Shown: positions 10,082 to 55,013 of the stretch, one piece after another
Layout of the letters: every line of letters begins with the position of its first letter
How positions within the stretch are numbered: position 1 is the first letter of the stretch
Virus record (IMG/VR): IMGVR_UViG_2609459792_000007
DNA length: 64,000 nt
Reading direction: 5' to 3' (one strand)
Source of the DNA: a virus
Taxonomy: Duplodnaviria; Heunggongvirae; Uroviricota; Caudoviricetes
Position numbers and translations under genes: made by a program
Notes under the pieces: generated by a model
What the model was told of the DNA's origin: nothing
The model's input: the letters and a program-made list of their open reading frames with translations, nothing else
Database searches by the model: none

Positions 10082-10156
10082 GATGGTGTAGCTCAGCGGT
10101 AGAGCAGTTGGCTGTTAACCAACTGGTCGGTGGTTCGAATCCACCCACCATCGCCA
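10082..10156 (+). tRNA. tRNA-Asn (anticodon GTT)
   Basis: Hand-folded cloverleaf: acceptor gatggtg/caccatc, D-stem gctc/gagc, anticodon stem gttgg/ccaac with loop ctGTTaa, T-arm ggtgg-ttcgaat-ccacc, CCA end. Confidence 0.85.
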
Positions 10157-10161
10157 ATTTA

Positions 10162-10248
10162 GGGGAGTTAGTCCGTAGAGGTAGCGGGGTAGACTGTAAA
10201 TCTACTGTCATGGAGACTCGGGTGGTTCGACTCCATCACTCCCCACCA
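10162..10248 (+). tRNA. tRNA-Tyr (anticodon GTA), long variable arm
   Basis: Acceptor ggggagt/actcccc, anticodon stem gtaga/tctac with loop ctGTAaa, T-arm ggtgg-ttcgact-ccatc, CCA; D-arm not cleanly canonical. Confidence 0.6.
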
Positions 10249-10252
10249 AATT

Positions 10253-21522: not shown

Positions 21523-22551
21523 ATGTCTAAGACATTACTTGATTTGCTTAACAAAACTCGTGAAGACATTGCTGCCAAACGTGGTAACAACGTTGATCTG
21601 ACTCGCTTAAAAGACGGCGTCAACTATATCCGCATCTTCCCGAATAAAGACGACCCAAACGGTAAGTTCTTCCAGACTTTCGGTATGCACTACGTTAAGT
21701 ATCAGAACGAGGAAGGTAAAGAAGCAACCAACGCTTATATTTGTGAGCAACATACTCACGGTCGCGCTTGTCAGCTATGCGAAATGGTTATGGAAGGTCG
21801 CGCTCGTCACAAGGGTAACAAAGCAATGGAAGAACGCATCGGTCAAATGCGTGCCACTCCTCGCTACCTGGTCAACGGCATTCTTTCTGCTCGTGAGGAT
21901 TTCGCAGATGCTGAGAAATGCCAGTTAATCGAGCTACCGTCTACTGTATTCGATGATATCTGCAAAGCAATCACCGAAGACATCGCTGATGATATCGGTA
22001 ATCCACTGAGCAAAGAGGAAGGCTACGCATTCCTGATTAAACGTACTGGCTCTGGTCGCGATACCAAATATGACGTCTCGCCTAAGCGTAAAGTCTACAA
22101 AGGCGATATCGAAGATAAATTCTGGAACACCCAGCATGATCTGATCGCATACGCAAATCAGGCTGATGAAACTCGTCTTCTGTCGACAGTTCGCACTATG
22201 GGTCGTCTGATTGGCATCGCTGCACCAACTGCCGCAGCATCTGCACCAGCAATTTCCTCAACCGCGAAAACATCGGCTGCGGCACTACCTGGATTTGGCT
22301 CTGTCACTGGTCATACGGAGGGTGCGACTGCTGTAGCAACCGCTCACACCCCAGCTTCTGAACCAACCAGTCTGGTTGATGAAGAAATCCTCCGTGCCGT
22401 TGAAACTGAATTTAAACCAGAAGCAAGTTCCGCTGCCGTTGCCGTATCAGTCAAAGAGTCTGAAGCAGTCGCAGCGACATCTGTAGCAACCGCATCTGCG
22501 ACGGAAGATGAAGGTCTGGATGACCTACTGAGAGAGCTGGACTCTCTGTAA
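21523..22551 (+). CDS. gp32-like single-stranded DNA-binding protein
   Basis: His/Cys cluster CEQHTHGRACQLCE (zinc-site-like), Ala/Ser/Thr-rich linker, acidic C-terminal tail DEGLDDLLRELDSL. Confidence 0.5.
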   Translation: MSKTLLDLLNKTREDIAAKRGNNVDLTRLKDGVNYIRIFPNKDDPNGKFFQTFGMHYVKYQNEEGKEATNAYICEQHTHGRACQLCEMVMEGRARHKGNKAMEERIGQMRATPRYLVNGILSAREDFADAEKCQLIELPSTVFDDICKAITEDIADDIGNPLSKEEGYAFLIKRTGSGRDTKYDVSPKRKVYKGDIEDKFWNTQHDLIAYANQADETRLLSTVRTMGRLIGIAAPTAAASAPAISSTAKTSAAALPGFGSVTGHTEGATAVATAHTPASEPTSLVDEEILRAVETEFKPEASSAAVAVSVKESEAVAATSVATASATEDEGLDDLLRELDSL

Positions 22552-45710: not shown

Positions 45711-46130
45711 ATGTTTAGTGAAATGTTGCTTGAAGATGAACTGGATCGGAAAACAACAGAGGCTTTGATTCGTGTAGCGGACGAACATTCCCGGTCGCTT
45801 ATGACCGATCGAGAGGCTCGTCTGGCTATTCGTGCCATATTCGAAACTGCGCAGGGGCTTGTTGGCGCACAAGTAGGTGAAGCCATTAACATCGCCATGT
45901 CTCAGTTCAGTGAAGACAGTAAAAAGCCTCTGTTTCCTATGCATTTGATGCTGGCTGGTGGCACGGTGCTTTATATCTCTGTTTGTCTGGATAGCAACCA
46001 AATCAATATTCTCAACACTGCGTCAGGTAAGTGGAAAGATCCGATTGTCTGTGAAACCAGTGAAGAAACTTTGAAAAAAGCGGCTCAATTTGTACGTAGC
46101 GCACTACTTAAGGGCGCTAAGAAGTTGTAA
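45711..46130 (+). CDS. Hypothetical protein
   Basis: 139-aa ORF. Confidence 0.4.
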   Translation: MFSEMLLEDELDRKTTEALIRVADEHSRSLMTDREARLAIRAIFETAQGLVGAQVGEAINIAMSQFSEDSKKPLFPMHLMLAGGTVLYISVCLDSNQINILNTASGKWKDPIVCETSEETLKKAAQFVRSALLKGAKKL

Positions 46131-46139
46131 GGAGTTCTG

Positions 46140-46697
46140 ATGACAACGATTGTTGCAGGCATCGATATCGAGTCTACGGGACTGGATTTCCTTGCTGGTC
46201 ATAAAATTATTGAAATCGCAATTACCCGCTATGAACTGGAGACACAGAGACATATTGATAGTCTGGAGATGCGTTTTAACCCTCGCAGAAACATAGATCC
46301 GAAAGCTCAAGCCGTTCATGGCATTTCATTGGAACAGCTCGCAGCTGAACCTTTGTTGTCAAATCATGCCAGCGAAATTGGCGCTTATATGGGGGCATGT
46401 AGTGCGTGGATTGCTCATAACGGTGAAGCGTTTGATATACCATTTATTCGACACGAGTTTTCAGGGTATGGAGTAAGACTGCCAGATGTTCCTGTTATAG
46501 ATACTATGTTATCGGGATTGTGGGCCACAGAAGACGGTAAACGTCCCCGCCTTGAAGAGTTGGCCTTCTCTCTTGGCTTTATATACGATCATGCCAAAGC
46601 ACATAGCGCCTTATATGACACAAACTTAATGATGCAATGCTTCTTTAAGGCACGTAATAAGTACGGATTTTTTAAATTACCCTCTGAAATTGTGTAA
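46140..46697 (+). CDS. DnaQ-like DEDDh 3'-5' exonuclease
   Basis: Exo I GIDIESTG, Exo II AHNGEAFDIPF, Exo III HSALYDT. Confidence 0.8.
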   Translation: MTTIVAGIDIESTGLDFLAGHKIIEIAITRYELETQRHIDSLEMRFNPRRNIDPKAQAVHGISLEQLAAEPLLSNHASEIGAYMGACSAWIAHNGEAFDIPFIRHEFSGYGVRLPDVPVIDTMLSGLWATEDGKRPRLEELAFSLGFIYDHAKAHSALYDTNLMMQCFFKARNKYGFFKLPSEIV

Positions 46698-46857
46698 AGC
46701 AAAAGCCTACTTTAAAGAGAGTTTAAAGTAGGCTTTCTTTTAAAGAACAGTCGCCTTTCAATCATTTCCTGCCTGTATTTAATACTTTTCCGCCTGATAG
46801 GTTTAGTCAAAATGTAGCCATCGAAACGCAAATGTAACCAAACAGAAGGAGACTTAC

Positions 46858-47667
46858 ATGAGTTCGGTTGAAAATGTAATGACAAATGATGATCTGGACG
46901 AACTGACAGCTATGTTGCAATCACTTGATGAACCGGTAAAAAAAGCTGCACAGGTTGAGAATACTGATGATATTGACGATCTGCTTCTAGGCCTCGATGC
47001 TGGCGTAGCCATGAGTTCTGATGATGTTGCCGAAGAACTGTTCAATGAAGAAAAAGCAGGTGATTTCAGCTCCGCTTTAAATGAGTTGGAGTTAGCGCAT
47101 GAGCCTATAAACGTAATTAACACTGAAAGTGGTGAAGCTGCCGAAAACGAGCCAGAACAATTGGGATTTATTGAGGTTGAAGATTGTGTTGAGGTTAATG
47201 ATGAATTAAAAGTTCAACAGTCAAATGATAGCAATACAAATAAAAAAGCTCGTACTGCAAGAGGTCCTCGTTTTACTTTAAGTGATAAAGATGATTCGTT
47301 TTTCAATAAAGCAGGCTTAGAAAAAGATATTTTCTTAGACGCTTACGAAAACGCGCCTGTCAAAGCAAAGGATAAGATATTAAACCTTCTTAATTGGTTT
47401 AGCGGAGGTCCAGATATTAGTGTTTACACGGTAATTTCCATGAGACACCTTCTCACAGAAAAGAAGGCTACAAGTAATAGTATTAAGATTGCTTTAATGA
47501 GCAATCCAGAAAAACCGTATCCGCTTAACACTGCGTCAACTCAGGCTGGGCAAATGATGGCTGTATTTCCAGCTACAGGAATTGCTGTTAGAGACGGTGG
47601 AAATCTAACATTGAACGAAGAATCACCGATCGTTAAGAAGTTTGTCGCGGAGTACACTATTGGATGA
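46858..47667 (+). CDS. Hypothetical protein with highly acidic N-terminal half
   Basis: 269 aa; Asp/Glu-rich first ~120 residues; directly upstream of Dam-like methyltransferase. Confidence 0.45.
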   Translation: MSSVENVMTNDDLDELTAMLQSLDEPVKKAAQVENTDDIDDLLLGLDAGVAMSSDDVAEELFNEEKAGDFSSALNELELAHEPINVINTESGEAAENEPEQLGFIEVEDCVEVNDELKVQQSNDSNTNKKARTARGPRFTLSDKDDSFFNKAGLEKDIFLDAYENAPVKAKDKILNLLNWFSGGPDISVYTVISMRHLLTEKKATSNSIKIALMSNPEKPYPLNTASTQAGQMMAVFPATGIAVRDGGNLTLNEESPIVKKFVAEYTIG

Positions 47668-47849
47668 CGTTCCCCTACTGAAAATAAAGCCCATAGAGAG
47701 CTTTATAGTGCTGGGTAAGCTAACCCATACCCAGCACCACAAAAACGCGTCAGAGAGCTTCTCGTTTGCATTTCTGGCGCGTTTTATTTGATTGCCAGAC
47801 ATAAAATCAAATGCAAAAATAGGTATTTACTTACCTATCGAGAAAGAAG

Positions 47850-48443
47850 ATGATTGCAGCCGAAAAAATCAAACAGCGAAAGCGCGACAACTCTCTTCGT
47901 GACCTCTGGAGAACACCTGATTGGCTGTTTTCTGCCATTCAACGTTATCTTGGAGTGACATTTGATGTTGACGTTGCCTGCAACAAGGACAATGCAAAGC
48001 TGCCTAATTTCATAGGCGTTGAGCGTGATGCTTTGAAATCTGAATGGGGACAGCCAGGTACAATTGCCTTCCTCAATCCACCCTACTCCAAAATCTCCCC
48101 CTGGATTGATGCGGCTATACGTGAGCAGGCTCGCGGAGTTACAACAGTGATGCTAATTCCTCAATCCCTAGATACAAAGTGGTATGAGCGTGCAACAGAG
48201 TGTGCGAATGAGACGATTATTCTGTCTGGTGGCCGCGTAGCGTTTGTCGAGCCTGACGTCAATCTGGGTCAGGTAGAAGTAAACATCAACCCAGGTGGCA
48301 GTATGCTCGTTGTTTTTCGAGGATTCTGTCAGGACGCTGGGCACTCTATAAGCAAGATCCCTTTGGACGTCATGAAAAGTCTGGGAGGGTATGATCCTGC
48401 GAATGTGATCAGGAAAAAAAGACCATCAAAGAAGGCTGCTTAG
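47850..48443 (+). CDS. DNA N6-adenine methyltransferase (phage Dam-like)
   Basis: Catalytic motif NPPYS; 197 aa. Confidence 0.7.
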   Translation: MIAAEKIKQRKRDNSLRDLWRTPDWLFSAIQRYLGVTFDVDVACNKDNAKLPNFIGVERDALKSEWGQPGTIAFLNPPYSKISPWIDAAIREQARGVTTVMLIPQSLDTKWYERATECANETIILSGGRVAFVEPDVNLGQVEVNINPGGSMLVVFRGFCQDAGHSISKIPLDVMKSLGGYDPANVIRKKRPSKKAA

Positions 48444-48465
48444 TTTGTTCTGGCGTCTGTAATTA

Positions 48466-48522
48466 GCCTGCTTCTGTATATATAAATAACTACATATTAA
48501 TTATTAATATACGGAAGCAGGC
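48466..48522. repeat. Palindromic ~55-bp element, copy 2 (contains TATAAATA)
   Basis: gcctgcttctgtatatataaata...atatacggaagcagg; matches copy at 2216-2271 including flanking tctggcgtct. Confidence 0.6.
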
Positions 48523-48604
48523 TGTTTTGTATCAGAGACTCCAGACCTGAACATCACTACAGAATCCACTAGAACCCCTTCCCAGACGCTTTAAAATCGA
48601 TTTT

Positions 48605-48859
48605 ATGAATCACTTTAAGGAAACTAACATGTCATACCCGACTAATGTCGTTGCGCTCGTAGAGAGCGATTTTCTGGCCCAGGCCCGTGAAATGATGAAA
48701 GATCGCGAGCAGGCTTTCAACTTGTACGAATGGGCAATTAAGTGCTTGCATCTTGGGGAGCATCGCGAACTTGTTGAACAGCTTTTAGGTGAGTTGATCA
48801 ACGAGGTGTTTGCCTTGAATGTTCAACTACATGGTCGAGAAAATAATCAATCGAAATGA
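48605..48859 (+). CDS. Hypothetical small protein
   Basis: 84-aa ORF; alternative ATG at 48629. Confidence 0.35.
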   Translation: MNHFKETNMSYPTNVVALVESDFLAQAREMMKDREQAFNLYEWAIKCLHLGEHRELVEQLLGELINEVFALNVQLHGRENNQSK

Positions 48860-49443
48860 TAGATAAGTACAAACTATTCATAAAGTGAATTGTAAGTGCT
48901 AAGATCTGATAGTTTCCAGTCGTAGACTGGAGACTCGACCTGATGGGTGGGGGTAAGCGTCACTGGCGTCAGGTTTAAAAAAGCTCACTACCAGCGTAGA
49001 ACCGGTGCCGTTTAGGTGTCGGGGAAGGGGGAACCAAAGTGAGCGGAGACAAGGGTCACTTTATGATTGTCGAGTCTGGGGTGTTTCGAGAGGTTGAATC
49101 CAGTACTCCCCTTCATAAAGTGTGGGAAGATCTCGGTTCTGGGGTGCTGTCATCCATAACTTCCCAAGTCTAAGCTGGCAGTAGACTTAGGCCATAACTT
49201 TTCAGGTTATGAAACGACCAGGTTGGTGAGGGATTTTTATACTCACCTCCCTGGGAGAGTATTACCTGAAAAGACAACCTCTCACTTCGTTCGAGGTGAA
49301 CTTCACTCACTTCGTTCGTTCAGTTCAGGTTTATAAAAACCTGTTCTGGGAAGTAATTTGTTTATTTTAATAATTATTAACACGCACGCGTGTGCGCACG
49401 CGCGAGGAAAAAAATCGGCGCGGCGCTTGATTCAGGAGTTTAT

Positions 49444-50977: not shown

Positions 50978-51403
50978 ATGTTAGGTTTATTCAAAAAGAA
51001 AACTCGTAAAGCTGTTATCGAGGTCAAAAAAATGGAGAACCGAGATGCGGTTGAAGCCACCGTGTGGGGCGCGTACATGATCTCCTATGCCGATGGCACA
51101 TGCGACGCAAAGGAAATTTCCATTCTTGAGAAAACAATTGCAGCTCTGCCTGCGTTTTCTCCGTTTGCTGGTGAGATTGCCCAAATGAGCGCCAATATCC
51201 GTGCTCAATACGAAGCCTCACCGCGCCGCGCTAATGCCCAGGCTTTACGTGAGCTGGCTGATGTGGCCGGGACTAATGATGCAGTAGATGTACTGTGTCT
51301 GTGCCTTGATATTGCCGACCAAGACGGTATTGGCGAACAAGAAGAGCTGGCCCTGAAAAAGATCGCACAGGCGCTTCAGTTGTCACTGGATGCTTATCTC
51401 TAA
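50978..51403 (+). CDS. TerB-like domain protein
   Basis: 141 aa; ADG..D..E...L..A.. pattern and C-terminal DQDGIGEQEELALKKIA typical of TerB-like folds; assignment from motif only. Confidence 0.45.
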   Translation: MLGLFKKKTRKAVIEVKKMENRDAVEATVWGAYMISYADGTCDAKEISILEKTIAALPAFSPFAGEIAQMSANIRAQYEASPRRANAQALRELADVAGTNDAVDVLCLCLDIADQDGIGEQEELALKKIAQALQLSLDAYL

Positions 51404-51561
51404 TGCTTGAGAGATTCCGGCTTGTGACCGTCATTGCTCTTCTGGTGATGGCGGTGTTGGTGGATTTTACGGGAAAGATGATGTCTGTCATTTCTGATGG
51501 CGTCCTCATTGGTCTGGCGATCTACTTCGCTTATCCGCTAGTCCGTAAAGCAACGTGTTAA
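51403..51561 (+). CDS. Small membrane protein
   Basis: 52-aa ORF below track cutoff; overlaps TerB-like stop (TAATG); followed by hairpin gggccaaatggccc. Confidence 0.35.
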   Translation: MLERFRLVTVIALLVMAVLVDFTGKMMSVISDGVLIGLAIYFAYPLVRKATC

Positions 51562-53327: not shown

Positions 53328-55013
53328 ATGAATACAGCCCTTTCCATCATCGACGATGCCAACTCAAACACTGCTATCGACTATCGGCAGGAAATGAACG
53401 TCATCCACGAAATTGTGGCCGAGTGCGAGAAAGAGATCGCCTTCATGTATCAGGTACACGACTTCGTTTATGGCGACGAACGCCACAACATGATTAATCG
53501 CCTGCTGAGACTAAACCATCGACCAGATGAAGATCGCTCGCGTTTAAATCGAGGTTGGTTGGATAAAGTCGATCTGGAATGGGTGAAACAGAATATTTGG
53601 GCCGAGTACTGGAGGAAGGTCACGGACATGACTAACGTTTTGCTGATCATGCCAGCTTCCCGTCGAGATGAGTGGCGCGAGCAGTTTATAGAGGGCAAAC
53701 AGGAAGTCATCAAAACTGACAGAACCGGCTACCAGATGAAGGTTAAAGAGTTCGTTGGTGTACCGGAGTTCAAAGCAGAAACGGTCATACCCACGATGCT
53801 TAATTTGCTGAATGACAGGCACAAATATCTCTCTGAGCGCGTGTATGGCTTGTTTAAGGCGCTGAGTCCTGCGCACAAGACAAATAAGACAAACGGTTTC
53901 AGCGAACGTCTGATAATCGCTGACTGCATTTCTGATTTCTGGCGGGACAGCGTTAGTGTGAACTATCGCAAAGAGGACTATATCGACGATCTGCGTGTCT
54001 TGCTTCATTTCTTCGCGCACAAAGAATTTATTACCATCAACCGCACTGCTGAGGTGCTATCAGCTGCGTATCGGGCAAACGACTGCCAGACCGGTGACTG
54101 GATGAACGTCGATGGAAATCTAATGCGCGTGAAGATGTTCAAGAACGGCAACGTTCACTTTGAAATACATCCTGACGTGGCCTGGAAGTTGAATGAGGTG
54201 CTGGCTTACAGTATGCCTGCTGCAATCCCCGCGCCATGTCGCACCGCGCCAAAAACACGGGCACCAAAGCAGTTCGGTTTAATCCAGAAGACGATCTCCG
54301 TGCCGGTTCGCACTGCGCTTCGTGACGGGCGATTGAGCAAAGACAAAGGCGTATGGTACTTCTCTGATTCAGCTCTCCAGAAGTCGCAGGTGGAAGAGCT
54401 TGAGCGCACACTGAGCTTCATTGGCGGCGTGCAGGAGAAAAAGCACTGGCAGTTCCCGTATGACATCGACCATACGCTAAATACGATTGTGGCTACCGGT
54501 TTAATACCGGATACAAAATCACACCAGTTCTACCCTACCCCACGCTTGATTGCTGAGTACGTTGCCAGAGCCACTGAATTGAAGCCTGGTGAGAAGCTGC
54601 TGGAGCCTCAAGCCGGACGTGGGGATCTTCTGGCCTATATTAACGCCGATCTGGAAGATGTTACCTGCATAGAAATCGCATCTCTCTTCGCTGATATCCT
54701 GCGTGGAAAAGGGTATACGAACACGATTTGCTGCGACTTCATAAAGTGGTCTGAGGACAACGCAGGTTATCAGTTCGACAAAATCGTTATGAACCCGCCG
54801 TACTCGCTTGGTCGTCATAAAGAGCACACGCTGGCTGCGCTGGGGCATCTGAAAGTCGGCGGGCGTCTTGTAGCAGTATTGCCGGGCACTGCGCCAATAC
54901 TGGACTGGATGACGATGGATAATTACGTTTATGCCAGAGGGAAGTCGTTTACCAACGAGTTTGAAGACACAGGGATCACAGTCAGCGTATACGTTTTCAA
55001 ACGCGTTAAATGA
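53328..55013 (+). CDS. DNA methyltransferase, NPPY-type, with large N-terminal domain of unknown function
   Basis: C-terminal AdoMet motif LEPQAGRGDL followed by IVMNPPYS; ~400-aa N-terminal region unassigned. Confidence 0.6.
   Translation: MNTALSIIDDANSNTAIDYRQEMNVIHEIVAECEKEIAFMYQVHDFVYGDERHNMINRLLRLNHRPDEDRSRLNRGWLDKVDLEWVKQNIWAEYWRKVTDMTNVLLIMPASRRDEWREQFIEGKQEVIKTDRTGYQMKVKEFVGVPEFKAETVIPTMLNLLNDRHKYLSERVYGLFKALSPAHKTNKTNGFSERLIIADCISDFWRDSVSVNYRKEDYIDDLRVLLHFFAHKEFITINRTAEVLSAAYRANDCQTGDWMNVDGNLMRVKMFKNGNVHFEIHPDVAWKLNEVLAYSMPAAIPAPCRTAPKTRAPKQFGLIQKTISVPVRTALRDGRLSKDKGVWYFSDSALQKSQVEELERTLSFIGGVQEKKHWQFPYDIDHTLNTIVATGLIPDTKSHQFYPTPRLIAEYVARATELKPGEKLLEPQAGRGDLLAYINADLEDVTCIEIASLFADILRGKGYTNTICCDFIKWSEDNAGYQFDKIVMNPPYSLGRHKEHTLAALGHLKVGGRLVAVLPGTAPILDWMTMDNYVYARGKSFTNEFEDTGITVSVYVFKRVK

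What the first reader, a model, noticed from the sequence alone, without database searches (positions are those of the whole stretch)
46858..48443. Acidic protein immediately upstream of a Dam-like methyltransferase: possible anti-restriction pair
The 269-aa protein has an Asp/Glu-rich N-terminal half, a composition seen in DNA-mimic anti-restriction proteins, and is followed by an orphan NPPY adenine methyltransferase with no restriction partner. A second, larger NPPY methyltransferase with a long unassigned N-terminal domain lies at 53328-55013. Together they suggest layered protection against host restriction.
Basis: inference. Interest (0 to 1): 0.5.

Follow-up and report, generated by a model that had tools for sequence, protein, structure and literature searches.

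The report
Winged-helix protein with SSB-like acidic arm
The "acidic anti-restriction protein" is more likely a replication-module protein of a phage-plasmid: a DNA-binding-type winged-helix domain on a floppy acidic arm whose tip copies the tail of the phage's own single-strand-binding protein. The two methyltransferases are ordinary orphan enzymes of mobile elements.

Summary
The window is an SSU5-like phage-plasmid, about 98% identical to Escherichia phages Cyrano and CMS-2020a. The ORFs, the acidic N-half (26% D+E, net -28) and both NPPY methyltransferases are real.

The "anti-restriction pair" reading is not supported for the acidic protein:
- The acidic stretch is its least conserved part (41% identity against 76-78%). 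It is predicted disordered and varies from 73 to 211 aa across the family.
- The family has at least 250 clusters at 50% identity, no Pfam model, and every copy is annotated "hypothetical".
- It occurs in SSU5-like, Pseudomonas nickie-like, Stenotrophomonas and Rhizobium siphophages, always 0-4 genes after the dnaQ-like exonuclease. Dam is adjacent only in most enterobacterial members.
- A matrix of the N-peptide built from distant relatives picks out the extreme C-terminal tip of gp32-type SSBs, including the window's own SSB and T4 gp32.

Best reading (inferred): a replication or recombination accessory factor that carries an SSB-tail-like recruiting peptide.

The Dam (PF05869) and the DUF4942-methyltransferase are common orphan methyltransferases of mobile elements. 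The clearer anti-restriction signal is that 14 of 64 palindromic hexamers are absent from the window.

The parts
46858..47667 (+). Gene for the 269-aa acidic-arm / winged-helix protein (equivalent to Cyrano CYRAN_78 and SSU5_087; phrog_5235)
   Evidence: ORF list. 98% identical to cluster P0001, with 55 homologs all on phage-plasmid-sized contigs. phrog_5235 E 1.5e-149. Annotated hypothetical in Cyrano and SSU5.
46885..46932 (+). N-terminal peptide motif, copy 1 (aa 10-25, NDDLDELTAMLQSLDE): an SSB-tail-like amphipathic acidic helix
   Evidence: 78% pairwise identity within the SSU5 group. Scores 20.7 bits against a matrix built from 129 distant relatives. Modelled as a helix, pLDDT about 84.
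46963..47001 (+). Peptide motif, copy 2 (aa 36-48, TDDIDDLLLGLDA)
   Evidence: DNA-level direct repeat 46887-46905 / 46965-46983 at 84% identity. Matrix score 13.3 bits. L42, L43 and L46 are nearly invariant.
47002..47262 (+). Acidic, predicted-disordered arm (aa 49-135)
   Evidence: pLDDT below 50 for residues 84-131. Only 41% identity within the SSU5 group. The N-terminal part ranges from 73 to 211 aa across the family. Median 24% D+E, median net charge -18.
47269..47652 (+). C-terminal winged-helix domain (aa 138-265)
46702..46745 (+). Terminator-like hairpin between the exonuclease gene and the acidic-protein gene
   Evidence: Perfect 15-bp stem with a 5-nt loop, followed by CTTTT.
46140..46697 (+). 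dnaQ-like 3'-5' exonuclease, the conserved syntenic neighbour
   Evidence: PF00929 RNase_T E 1.1e-20; phrog_192 'DNA polymerase exonuclease subunit'. Lies 0-4 genes upstream of the family member in every lineage examined.
47850..48443 (+). Orphan phage Dam-type N6-adenine methyltransferase (197 aa)
   Evidence: PF05869 E 2.5e-38. TIGR01712 113.9 bits, above its cutoff of 97. NPPY at residue 76. PADLOC 'oMTase' models. Homologs in 1294 phage records, 39% identical to the Stx phage 933W copy.
53328..55013 (+). DUF4942 plus C-terminal gamma-type N6-adenine methyltransferase (561 aa)
   Evidence: PF13708 E 1.7e-20 (aa 140-295). phrog_6263 'DNA methyltransferase' E 7e-299. AdoMet motif LEPQAGRGDL upstream of NPPY at 489. 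Homologs on 2528 plasmid records, 1358 of them conjugative.
22513..22548 (+). C-terminal tip (GLDDLLRELDSL) of the gp32-like SSB (gene 21523-22551), the peptide that the acidic protein's N-motif resembles
   Evidence: Second-best hit of the family N-motif matrix in the six-frame scan of the window, and the only high-scoring C-terminal 12-mer among 314 segments. The core matrix places the best site of five gp32-type SSBs 0-3 residues from the C-end.

Best explanation
The 269-aa protein is not a DNA-mimic partner of the Dam. It belongs to an uncharacterised family found in the replication module of siphophages of about 105-120 kb that encode their own DnaE, DnaQ-like exonuclease and gp32-type SSB.

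Anatomy (shown): one or two short amphipathic acidic peptides at the N-terminus, then a disordered acidic arm of variable length, then a conserved winged-helix domain.

Mechanism (inferred): the winged-helix domain anchors the protein on DNA, or on a replisome protein. The flexible arm presents a peptide that copies the C-terminal tip of the phage's own gp32-type SSB. The protein would therefore recruit, hand over or compete for the factors that dock on the SSB tail; in T4 these are the primase, the helicase loader and RNase H. The acidic arm may also fold back on the basic face of the winged helix and gate its binding, as SSB tails do.

The neighbouring Dam and the distant DUF4942-methyltransferase are independent orphan methyltransferases that pre-methylate the element's DNA.
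For: Element identity: SSU5-like phage-plasmid.

Fold:
- AF2 pLDDT above 90 for aa 140-265, with residues 84-131 disordered.

Conservation: N-motif 78%, C-domain 76%, arm 41%.

Family:
- 250 clusters at 50% identity, all with the same three-part layout.
- Named members come only from four phage lineages that carry gp32-like SSB, DnaE and DnaQ.

Synteny:
- The gene lies 0-4 genes downstream of the dnaQ-like exonuclease in every lineage.
- Dam is absent in L005, L008, L009, nickie, RHEph10, RHph_Y2_11 and ANB28.

Motif:
- A matrix from 129 distant members hits the protein's own N-terminus (20.7 bits), then the last 12 residues of the window's SSB (14.6).
- T4 gp32's tip scores 17.2 and the Rhizobium phage SSB tail 16.5.
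- The 7-residue core finds the best site of all five SSBs 0-3 residues from the C-end, at a background frequency of 3e-4 or less per position.

Literature:
- The acidic A-domain of gp32 binds gp61, gp59 and RNase H (PMC3012046).
- The gp32 C-terminal region is proposed to be bifunctional, both recruiting partners and gating ssDNA binding (PMC11551737).
- In T7, the acidic tails of gp4 engage basic patches on the polymerase, and gp2.5 also binds the polymerase (PMC12593628).
Against: - No binding has been shown: neither the winged helix to DNA nor the peptide to any partner.
- Winged-helix domains can also serve purely as protein-protein modules.
- The motif is short and rich in D, E and L, so part of the resemblance to SSB tails is compositional. 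About 1% of shuffles of the SSB tail reach the same score.
- The ANB28 family member has only a weak N-motif (7.4 bits).
- The partner of the extreme gp32 tip itself is not defined. The Dda-binding helix is a different segment, residues 248-270, which scores only 5.0.
- The gene follows a terminator and may be its own transcription unit, so operon logic with dnaQ is weak in this window.
Confidence: 0.45

Rival explanations
1. One reading: the acidic half is a DNA mimic (Ocr/ArdA-like) that blocks host restriction enzymes and works as a pair with the downstream Dam.
For: Strong negative charge in residues 1-134 (net -28). Dam lies downstream in most enterobacterial SSU5-like elements. The element is clearly under restriction pressure, given the palindrome avoidance.
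Against: - No match to Ocr, ArdA or other anti-restriction families, or to PADLOC models.
- The acidic arm is disordered, 41% conserved and 73-211 aa long, unlike the rigid, folded known mimics.
- The conserved part is a winged helix.
- Dam is missing beside homologs in L005 and in three other phage lineages.
- L008 and L009 carry a separate PF03230 'Antirestrict' gene.
- The gene sits in the replication module, not at a leading or early-entry end.
Confidence: 0.06
2. A sequence-specific transcription factor of the phage. The winged helix reads promoter or operator DNA, and the acidic arm and peptide contact RNA polymerase or another regulator. This would be a MotA-like or repressor-like role that times expression of the replication-module genes.
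For: The best structural matches are transcriptional regulators: ArsR, MarR, Fur and PadR. Polar T/S/Q residues are conserved at the start of the predicted recognition helix. The gene has its own upstream region with a block conserved across the SSU5 group.
Against: - No repeated operator-like motif was found. The AAATGTARCC pair is not conserved and GCCTGATAGGTTT is not enriched.
- Recognition-helix residues that stay invariant across very different hosts and genomes argue against sequence-specific operators that should co-evolve.
- This model does not explain the resemblance of the N-peptide to SSB tails.
Confidence: 0.2
3. A non-specific DNA-coating or architectural protein, like the globular domain of a linker histone, whose acidic arm auto-inhibits binding. 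It would organise or shield replicating phage DNA.
Confidence: 0.1
4. An anti-defence decoy: the SSB-tail-like peptide on an acidic arm titrates a host factor or a defence sensor that recognises phage SSB or SSB tails.
For: Resemblance of the N-peptide to the phage SSB tail. Rapid sequence turnover of the arm.
Against: - The strongly conserved winged helix has no role in this model.
- The gene is present in strictly lytic and in temperate lineages across distant hosts, always at the same replication-module position.
- There is no match to anti-defence families.
Confidence: 0.07

Closest known systems
T4 gp32 acidic C-terminal A-domain, and gp32-type SSB tails in general
   Same: A short amphipathic acidic peptide ([DE][DE]L[DE]x[LMF]L) sits at the very end of a disordered acidic segment. 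The family's N-motif matrix scores the T4 gp32 tip at 17.2 bits and places the best site at the C-terminal tip of all five gp32-type SSBs tested. In T4 this domain recruits replisome proteins (PMC3012046).
   Different: Here the peptide is at the N-terminus, is sometimes duplicated, and is attached to a winged-helix domain rather than an OB-fold ssDNA-binding core. There is no sequence homology to gp32 outside the motif.
T7 gp4 helicase-primase and gp2.5 SSB acidic C-terminal tails
   Same: This is a precedent for an SSB and a second replisome protein of one phage both engaging the DNA polymerase. The acidic tails of gp4 bind basic patches on the polymerase, and gp2.5 also binds it (PMC12593628).
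   Different: The T7 tails end in an aromatic residue and sit on enzymes of known activity. Here the carrier is a small winged-helix protein with no known activity.
Winged-helix DNA-binding domains (ArsR/SmtB, MarR, Fur, PadR families)
   Different: Sequence identity is only 0-16%. No Pfam winged-helix family matches. There is no metal or ligand site or dimerisation element typical of those families, and there are extra N-terminal helices (146-181) plus the acidic arm.
Ocr (T7 gp0.3) and ArdA DNA-mimic anti-restriction proteins
   Same: High negative charge.
   Different: Those proteins are folded, rigid mimics of B-DNA in which the acidic surface is the conserved functional part (my own knowledge of the published structures). 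Here the acidic part is disordered and is the least conserved segment, and there is no sequence match.
Phage orphan Dam methyltransferases (PF05869 / TIGR01712; e.g. the Stx phage 933W copy)
   Same: ORF 47850-48443 matches the family above its curated cutoffs, with NPPY intact and no restriction partner.
   Different: Only 39% identical to the nearest named non-SSU5 phage copy. Its specificity is untested; GATC is expected only by analogy, from my recollection of characterised members.

Membership tests
Ocr / ArdA-type DNA-mimic anti-restriction proteins | Sequence membership in the Pfam Ocr, ArdA or Antirestrict families | tested here: not met
   Pfam scan at E<=0.1 returned only a spurious sub-threshold AAA_lid hit. 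NCBIfam, PADLOC and PDB sequence searches found nothing relevant. Scanning 61 family members individually against Pfam also found nothing.
Ocr / ArdA-type DNA-mimic anti-restriction proteins | A folded, conserved acidic surface that imitates the DNA backbone | tested here: not met
   The acidic arm has pLDDT below 50 (residues 84-131), 41% identity against 76% for the C-domain, and varies from 73 to 211 aa in length.
Ocr / ArdA-type DNA-mimic anti-restriction proteins | Inhibition of Type I restriction-modification enzymes | not testable with these tools
   Requires plating-efficiency or biochemical assays.
Winged-helix (wHTH) fold superfamily | H1-S1-H2-H3-S2-wing-S3 topology | tested here: met
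Winged-helix (wHTH) fold superfamily | DNA binding through the recognition helix and wing | not testable with these tools
   Only indirect support: T225, Q229 and Q232 are invariant at the start of H3, and positions 169, 173, 219 and 245 are K/R-conserved.
gp32-type SSB tail motif (functional resemblance, not homology) | A terminal amphipathic acidic peptide matching the SSB C-terminal tip | tested here: met
   The matrix built from 129 distant members hits the window SSB tip (14.6 bits), the T4 gp32 tip (17.2) and the RHph_Y2_11 SSB tail (16.5). The core matrix places the best site in 5 of 5 SSBs 0-3 residues from the C-end.
gp32-type SSB tail motif (functional resemblance, not homology) | Binds the same partner proteins as the SSB tail | not testable with these tools
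   Needs pull-down, peptide competition or a multimer structure prediction.
Phage Dam N6-adenine methyltransferase (PF05869 / TIGR01712) | HMM score above the curated cutoff, with near full-length coverage | tested here: met
   PF05869: 131.8 bits against a cutoff of 28.1, profile positions 5-160 of 169. TIGR01712: 113.9 bits against 97.05.
Phage Dam N6-adenine methyltransferase (PF05869 / TIGR01712) | Catalytic (D/N)PP(Y/F) motif intact | tested here: met
   NPPY at residues 76-79 in the context AFLNPPYSK.
Phage Dam N6-adenine methyltransferase (PF05869 / TIGR01712) | Methylation activity and target site | not testable with these tools
   Needs a SMRT or nanopore methylome. GATC is not avoided in the window (277 observed, O/E 0.86), which is compatible with a GATC target but is not proof.
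DUF4942-containing gamma-class N6-adenine methyltransferase | DUF4942 domain plus a C-terminal AdoMet motif I followed by NPPY | tested here: met
   PF13708 at 74 bits (cutoff 25), aa 140-295. LEPQAGRGDL lies upstream of NPPY at 489. phrog_6263 E 7e-299.
Type II restriction-modification system (methyltransferase with a cognate endonuclease) | An adjacent restriction endonuclease gene | tested here: not met
   The neighbours of both methyltransferases are small hypothetical proteins, RNase H, a TerB-like protein and Ead/Ea22-like genes. No nuclease is annotated beside them in Cyrano or SSU5. PADLOC gives 'orphan methyltransferase' models for the Dam.

The most novel reading that the evidence does not exclude
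The family is a previously unrecognised replisome or recombination organiser of phages that use DnaE-type polymerases. It would be a DNA-anchored 'SSB-tail mimic' that recruits, or hands over, the proteins that normally dock on the gp32-type SSB tail (primase, helicase loader, flap nuclease/RNase H, recombination mediator). It might act, for example, at the lytic origin or at recombination intermediates.
Probability: 0.25. Interest if true: 0.6.

Novelty: new variant of a known kind. Interest (0 to 1): 0.38.

Why it matters
For the original question, this removes a false lead. High acidity alone does not make a phage protein a DNA mimic, and the two methyltransferases are routine orphan enzymes.

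On the positive side, it defines a widespread, unannotated phage protein family (at least 250 clusters at 50% identity, no Pfam model) with a clear domain plan and a testable hypothesis. Replication proteins other than the SSB can carry the SSB's own recruiting peptide. That would help explain how the poorly studied DnaE/DnaQ-type replisomes of SSU5-like phage-plasmids and nickie-like phages are assembled. SSU5-like elements are clinically relevant carriers of resistance genes in Enterobacteriaceae (PMC9600943).

The very selective loss of 6-bp palindromes shows where this element's real anti-restriction investment lies.

Tried and rejected
- Sequence searches of the acidic protein against Pfam, NCBIfam, PADLOC and PDB found nothing. 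Scanning 61 diverse members individually against Pfam gave only chance hits.
- Foldseek against BFVD viral structures returned only unnamed or uncharacterised proteins.
- The AFDB50 fold library was unavailable.
- The search for related loci with the diverse alignment failed because no stretch was conserved enough. The second word-indexed homolog search mostly returned the same SSU5-like set, but it gave P0140 and P0200 for context look-ups.
- Operator search: the AAATGTARCCA pair upstream of the gene (2 copies in the window, 0.32 expected) is not conserved in SSU5 or in the Enterobacter and Raoultella relatives. The conserved upstream block GCCTGATAGGTTT is not enriched elsewhere in the window (22 matches against 15.7 +/- 3.8). 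Both were dropped.
- Rfam found only three tRNAs, and nothing in the 48860-49390 non-coding stretch.
- The promoter and terminator scans were at chance level overall. Only the perfect hairpin at 46702-46736 is convincing.
- TubR-like partition roles were considered and rejected, because the family also occurs in nickie-like phages, which are not in the phage-plasmid group.
- The Dda-binding helix of gp32 (residues 248-270) was considered as the true counterpart of the motif. It scores only 5.0 bits, against 17.2 for the extreme tip.
Full report
**What the window is.** The region 46000-49000 is 97.7-98.3% identical over its full length to Escherichia phages CMS-2020a, Cyrano and PhiR41_1, and about 75% identical in part to Salmonella phage SSU5. 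The window is therefore part of an SSU5-like phage-plasmid. In Cyrano the three genes of the finding are CYRAN_78 (hypothetical), CYRAN_79 (adenine methyltransferase) and CYRAN_90 (DUF4942 protein). They lie inside a long rightward block of nucleotide-metabolism and replication genes: RNR, MazG, thymidylate synthase, DHFR, the epsilon-like exonuclease and RNase H. DnaE, helicase, primase, ligase, a gp32-like SSB, and UvsY-like and RecA-like genes lie further upstream.

**Checking the observation.** All three ORFs exist at the stated coordinates.
- The 269-aa protein has 26% D+E and net charge -28 in residues 1-134. Residues 135-269 are neutral to slightly basic (net +1, pI 8.1).
- The 197-aa protein is a phage Dam: PF05869 E 2.5e-38, TIGR01712 above its curated cutoff, NPPY at residue 76.
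- The 561-aa protein has DUF4942 (aa 140-295) and a C-terminal methyltransferase domain with an AdoMet motif (LEPQAGRGDL) followed by NPPY at 489.
- No nuclease partner is next to either methyltransferase, and PADLOC's best models for the Dam are 'orphan methyltransferase'.
- 'Immediately upstream' is too strong. A 182-bp spacer with hairpins and a promoter-like site separates the acidic-protein gene from dam. A perfect 15-bp hairpin followed by a T-run separates it from the upstream exonuclease gene.

**Anatomy of the acidic protein.** Homologs found by the word-indexed search all lie on contigs of about 100-120 kb, the size of these phage-plasmids, and all are unnamed. Their alignment shows three parts:
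- a conserved N-terminal peptide, NDDLDELTAMLQSLDE;
- an acidic region that changes in both sequence and length;
- a highly conserved C-terminal domain of about 130 residues.

**The family is broad and belongs to the replication module.** An exhaustive phmmer search with the C-domain found 250 clusters at 50% identity with E<1e-3. Nearly all are 220-300 aa long with the domain at the C-terminus. Their N-terminal parts are again acidic (median 24% D+E, median net charge -18), range from 73 to 211 residues, and begin with a peptide of the type D-x-ELDA(M/L)L-x-x-L. Named phages that encode members fall into four groups, all about 105-120 kb: SSU5-like elements, Pseudomonas nickie-like phages, Stenotrophomonas phages ANB28 and BUCTxx99, and Rhizobium RHEph10-like phages. 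Every copy is annotated hypothetical.

In every context examined, the gene lies 0-4 genes downstream of the dnaQ-like RNase_T exonuclease. This holds in the window, SSU5, the Enterobacter and Raoultella relatives, two metagenomic contigs, nickie, RHEph10, RHph_Y2_11 and ANB28. A Dam gene follows it only in most of the enterobacterial SSU5-like elements examined. It is absent in the Raoultella element L005 and in all non-enterobacterial lineages. The DUF4942-methyltransferase is also absent from the stretches examined in L005, L006 and L007. Contigs L008 and L009 carry a separate Pfam PF03230 'Antirestrict' gene 7-9 kb away; as I recall, that is the ArdB/KlcA family. The acidic protein and the Dam are therefore neighbours in one clade, not a functional pair.

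**The N-terminal peptide copies the SSB tail.** The window's gp32-like SSB (21523-22551) ends in ...EDEGLDDLLRELDSL, which resembles the N-terminus of the acidic protein. To test this without bias, I built a 12-column position matrix of the N-motif from 129 distant family members only, and scanned all six-frame segments of the window.
- The top hit was the protein's own N-terminus (20.7 bits).
- The next was the last 12 residues of the SSB (14.6 bits). This is the only high-scoring C-terminal 12-mer among 314 segments.
- A second copy of the motif at aa 35-46 scored 13.3 bits. This duplication is also visible as a DNA repeat.
- T4 gp32's extreme tip, DDTDLDDLLNDL, scores 17.2 bits, and the Rhizobium phage SSB tail scores 16.5.
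- With the 7-residue core, the best site in each of five gp32-type SSBs (window, nickie, ANB28, RHph_Y2_11, T4) lies 0-3 residues from the C-terminus, at scores reached by 3e-4 or less of background positions.

Part of this resemblance is compositional: about 1% of shuffles of the SSB tail reach the same score. However, the terminal placement in every case is hard to ascribe to chance. The acidic A-domain of gp32 is the recruiting platform for gp61 primase, gp59 helicase loader and RNase H (PMC3012046). Recent work proposes that the gp32 C-terminal region is bifunctional, both recruiting partners and gating the ssDNA-binding site (PMC11551737). T7 offers a precedent for an SSB and a second replisome protein both engaging the polymerase, where gp4 does so through its acidic tails (PMC12593628).

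**Most likely mechanism.**
- Shown: the domain plan, the fold, the conservation pattern, the synteny, and the motif correspondence.
- Inferred: the winged helix anchors the protein on DNA or on a replisome component. The disordered acidic arm acts as a flexible tether and possibly as an auto-inhibitor of the basic face of the winged helix. The terminal peptide recruits, or competes for, the factors that bind the SSB tail.

I put this at about 0.45. I looked for operator-like repeats and found none that were conserved or enriched.

**The methyltransferases.** The Dam has homologs in 1294 phage records and is 39% identical to the Stx phage 933W copy. The DUF4942-methyltransferase has homologs on 2528 plasmid records, 1358 of them conjugative. 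On an IncHI2 plasmid it lies within 2 kb of a separate Dam-family methyltransferase gene. Both look catalytically intact. They are best read as ordinary orphan methyltransferases of mobile elements that protect the DNA from cognate restriction. Activity and targets cannot be established here. GATC is not avoided in the window (277 sites, O/E 0.86).

**An unplanned finding that bears on 'layered protection'.** 14 of the 64 palindromic hexamers are completely absent from the 64-kb window. They include the HindIII, EcoRI, PstI, SacI, NcoI, SphI, BamHI, GGCGCC, AGCGCT and TCCGGA sites, each expected about 9-18 times from base composition. Only 14 of 4032 non-palindromic hexamers are absent. Palindromic hexamers total 670 observed against 1016 expected. 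Site avoidance is therefore this element's most visible defence against Type II enzymes. No paper in the held library that mentions SSU5 or phage-plasmids also uses the phrases 'palindrome avoidance' or 'restriction site avoidance'.

**Verdict.** The acidic protein is better described as a member of a new, unannotated winged-helix family of the phage replication module that carries an SSB-tail-like peptide. That is a new variant of known themes (winged-helix DNA binders, acidic recruiting tails). Its interest is moderate, because it gives a concrete and testable handle on an unstudied replisome.

Noticed in passing
window 1-64000: Extreme and selective avoidance of 6-bp palindromes. 14 of 64 palindromic hexamers have zero occurrences: AAGCTT, GAATTC, CTGCAG, GAGCTC, CCATGG, GCATGC, GGATCC, GGCGCC, AGCGCT, GGGCCC, TCCGGA, TCTAGA, GCTAGC and CCTAGG. 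Only 14 of 4032 non-palindromic hexamers are absent. Palindromic hexamers total 670 observed against 1016 expected. CTAG O/E is 0.37, while GATC is not avoided.
   Followed up: partly
window 21523-22551: The gp32-like SSB has a long Ala/Ser/Thr/Glu-rich, low-complexity C-terminal region that ends in the tip GLDDLLRELDSL. The same tip motif is present in the SSBs of nickie, ANB28, RHph_Y2_11 and T4.
   Followed up: yes
window 46140-46697: The dnaQ-like exonuclease is only 185 aa, essentially just the RNase_T catalytic domain. From memory, E. coli epsilon has an extra C-terminal segment that tethers it to the polymerase alpha subunit. How this phage exonuclease joins its DnaE is therefore open, and a bridging subunit is conceivable.
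   Followed up: no
window 48860-49390: A stretch of about 530 bp without a convincing ORF, lying between a small hypothetical gene and RNase H. It is dense in short direct and inverted repeats, for example CTCACTTCGTTCG twice 25 bp apart and TCATAAAGTGA inverted. There is no Rfam match. It could be a regulatory or origin-like region.
   Followed up: partly
window 50978-51561: A TerB-domain protein (PF05099, E 1.2e-6) is followed by a 52-aa ORF. In Cyrano these are annotated as P1 TciA-like and TciB-like. The pair is conserved in the Enterobacter and Raoultella relatives (TerB/DUF3927).
   Followed up: no
window 10082-10325: Three adjacent tRNA genes (Rfam RF00005), matching the Asn/Thr/Ser tRNA cluster annotated in Cyrano.
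   Followed up: no
L018 (IncHI2 plasmid NZ_CP022165.1) 3561-7845: A DUF4942-methyltransferase homolog (30% identity) sits about 2 kb from a separate Dam-family methyltransferase on a conjugative IncHI2 plasmid. Carrying two orphan adenine methyltransferases therefore recurs on unrelated mobile elements.
   Followed up: partly
L008 17660-18094; L009 19065-19520: Metagenomic nickie-like phage contigs that encode a family member also carry a PF03230 'Antirestrict' gene 7-9 kb downstream. It lies in a block with 2OG-Fe(II) oxygenase, DUF3846 and DUF3268 genes.
   Followed up: no
P0002 and P0040 (homologs of window 46858-47667): Two database homologs diverge abruptly from the family alignment partway through and look like frameshifted or mis-assembled copies. 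They were excluded from the alignment used for structure prediction.
   Followed up: no
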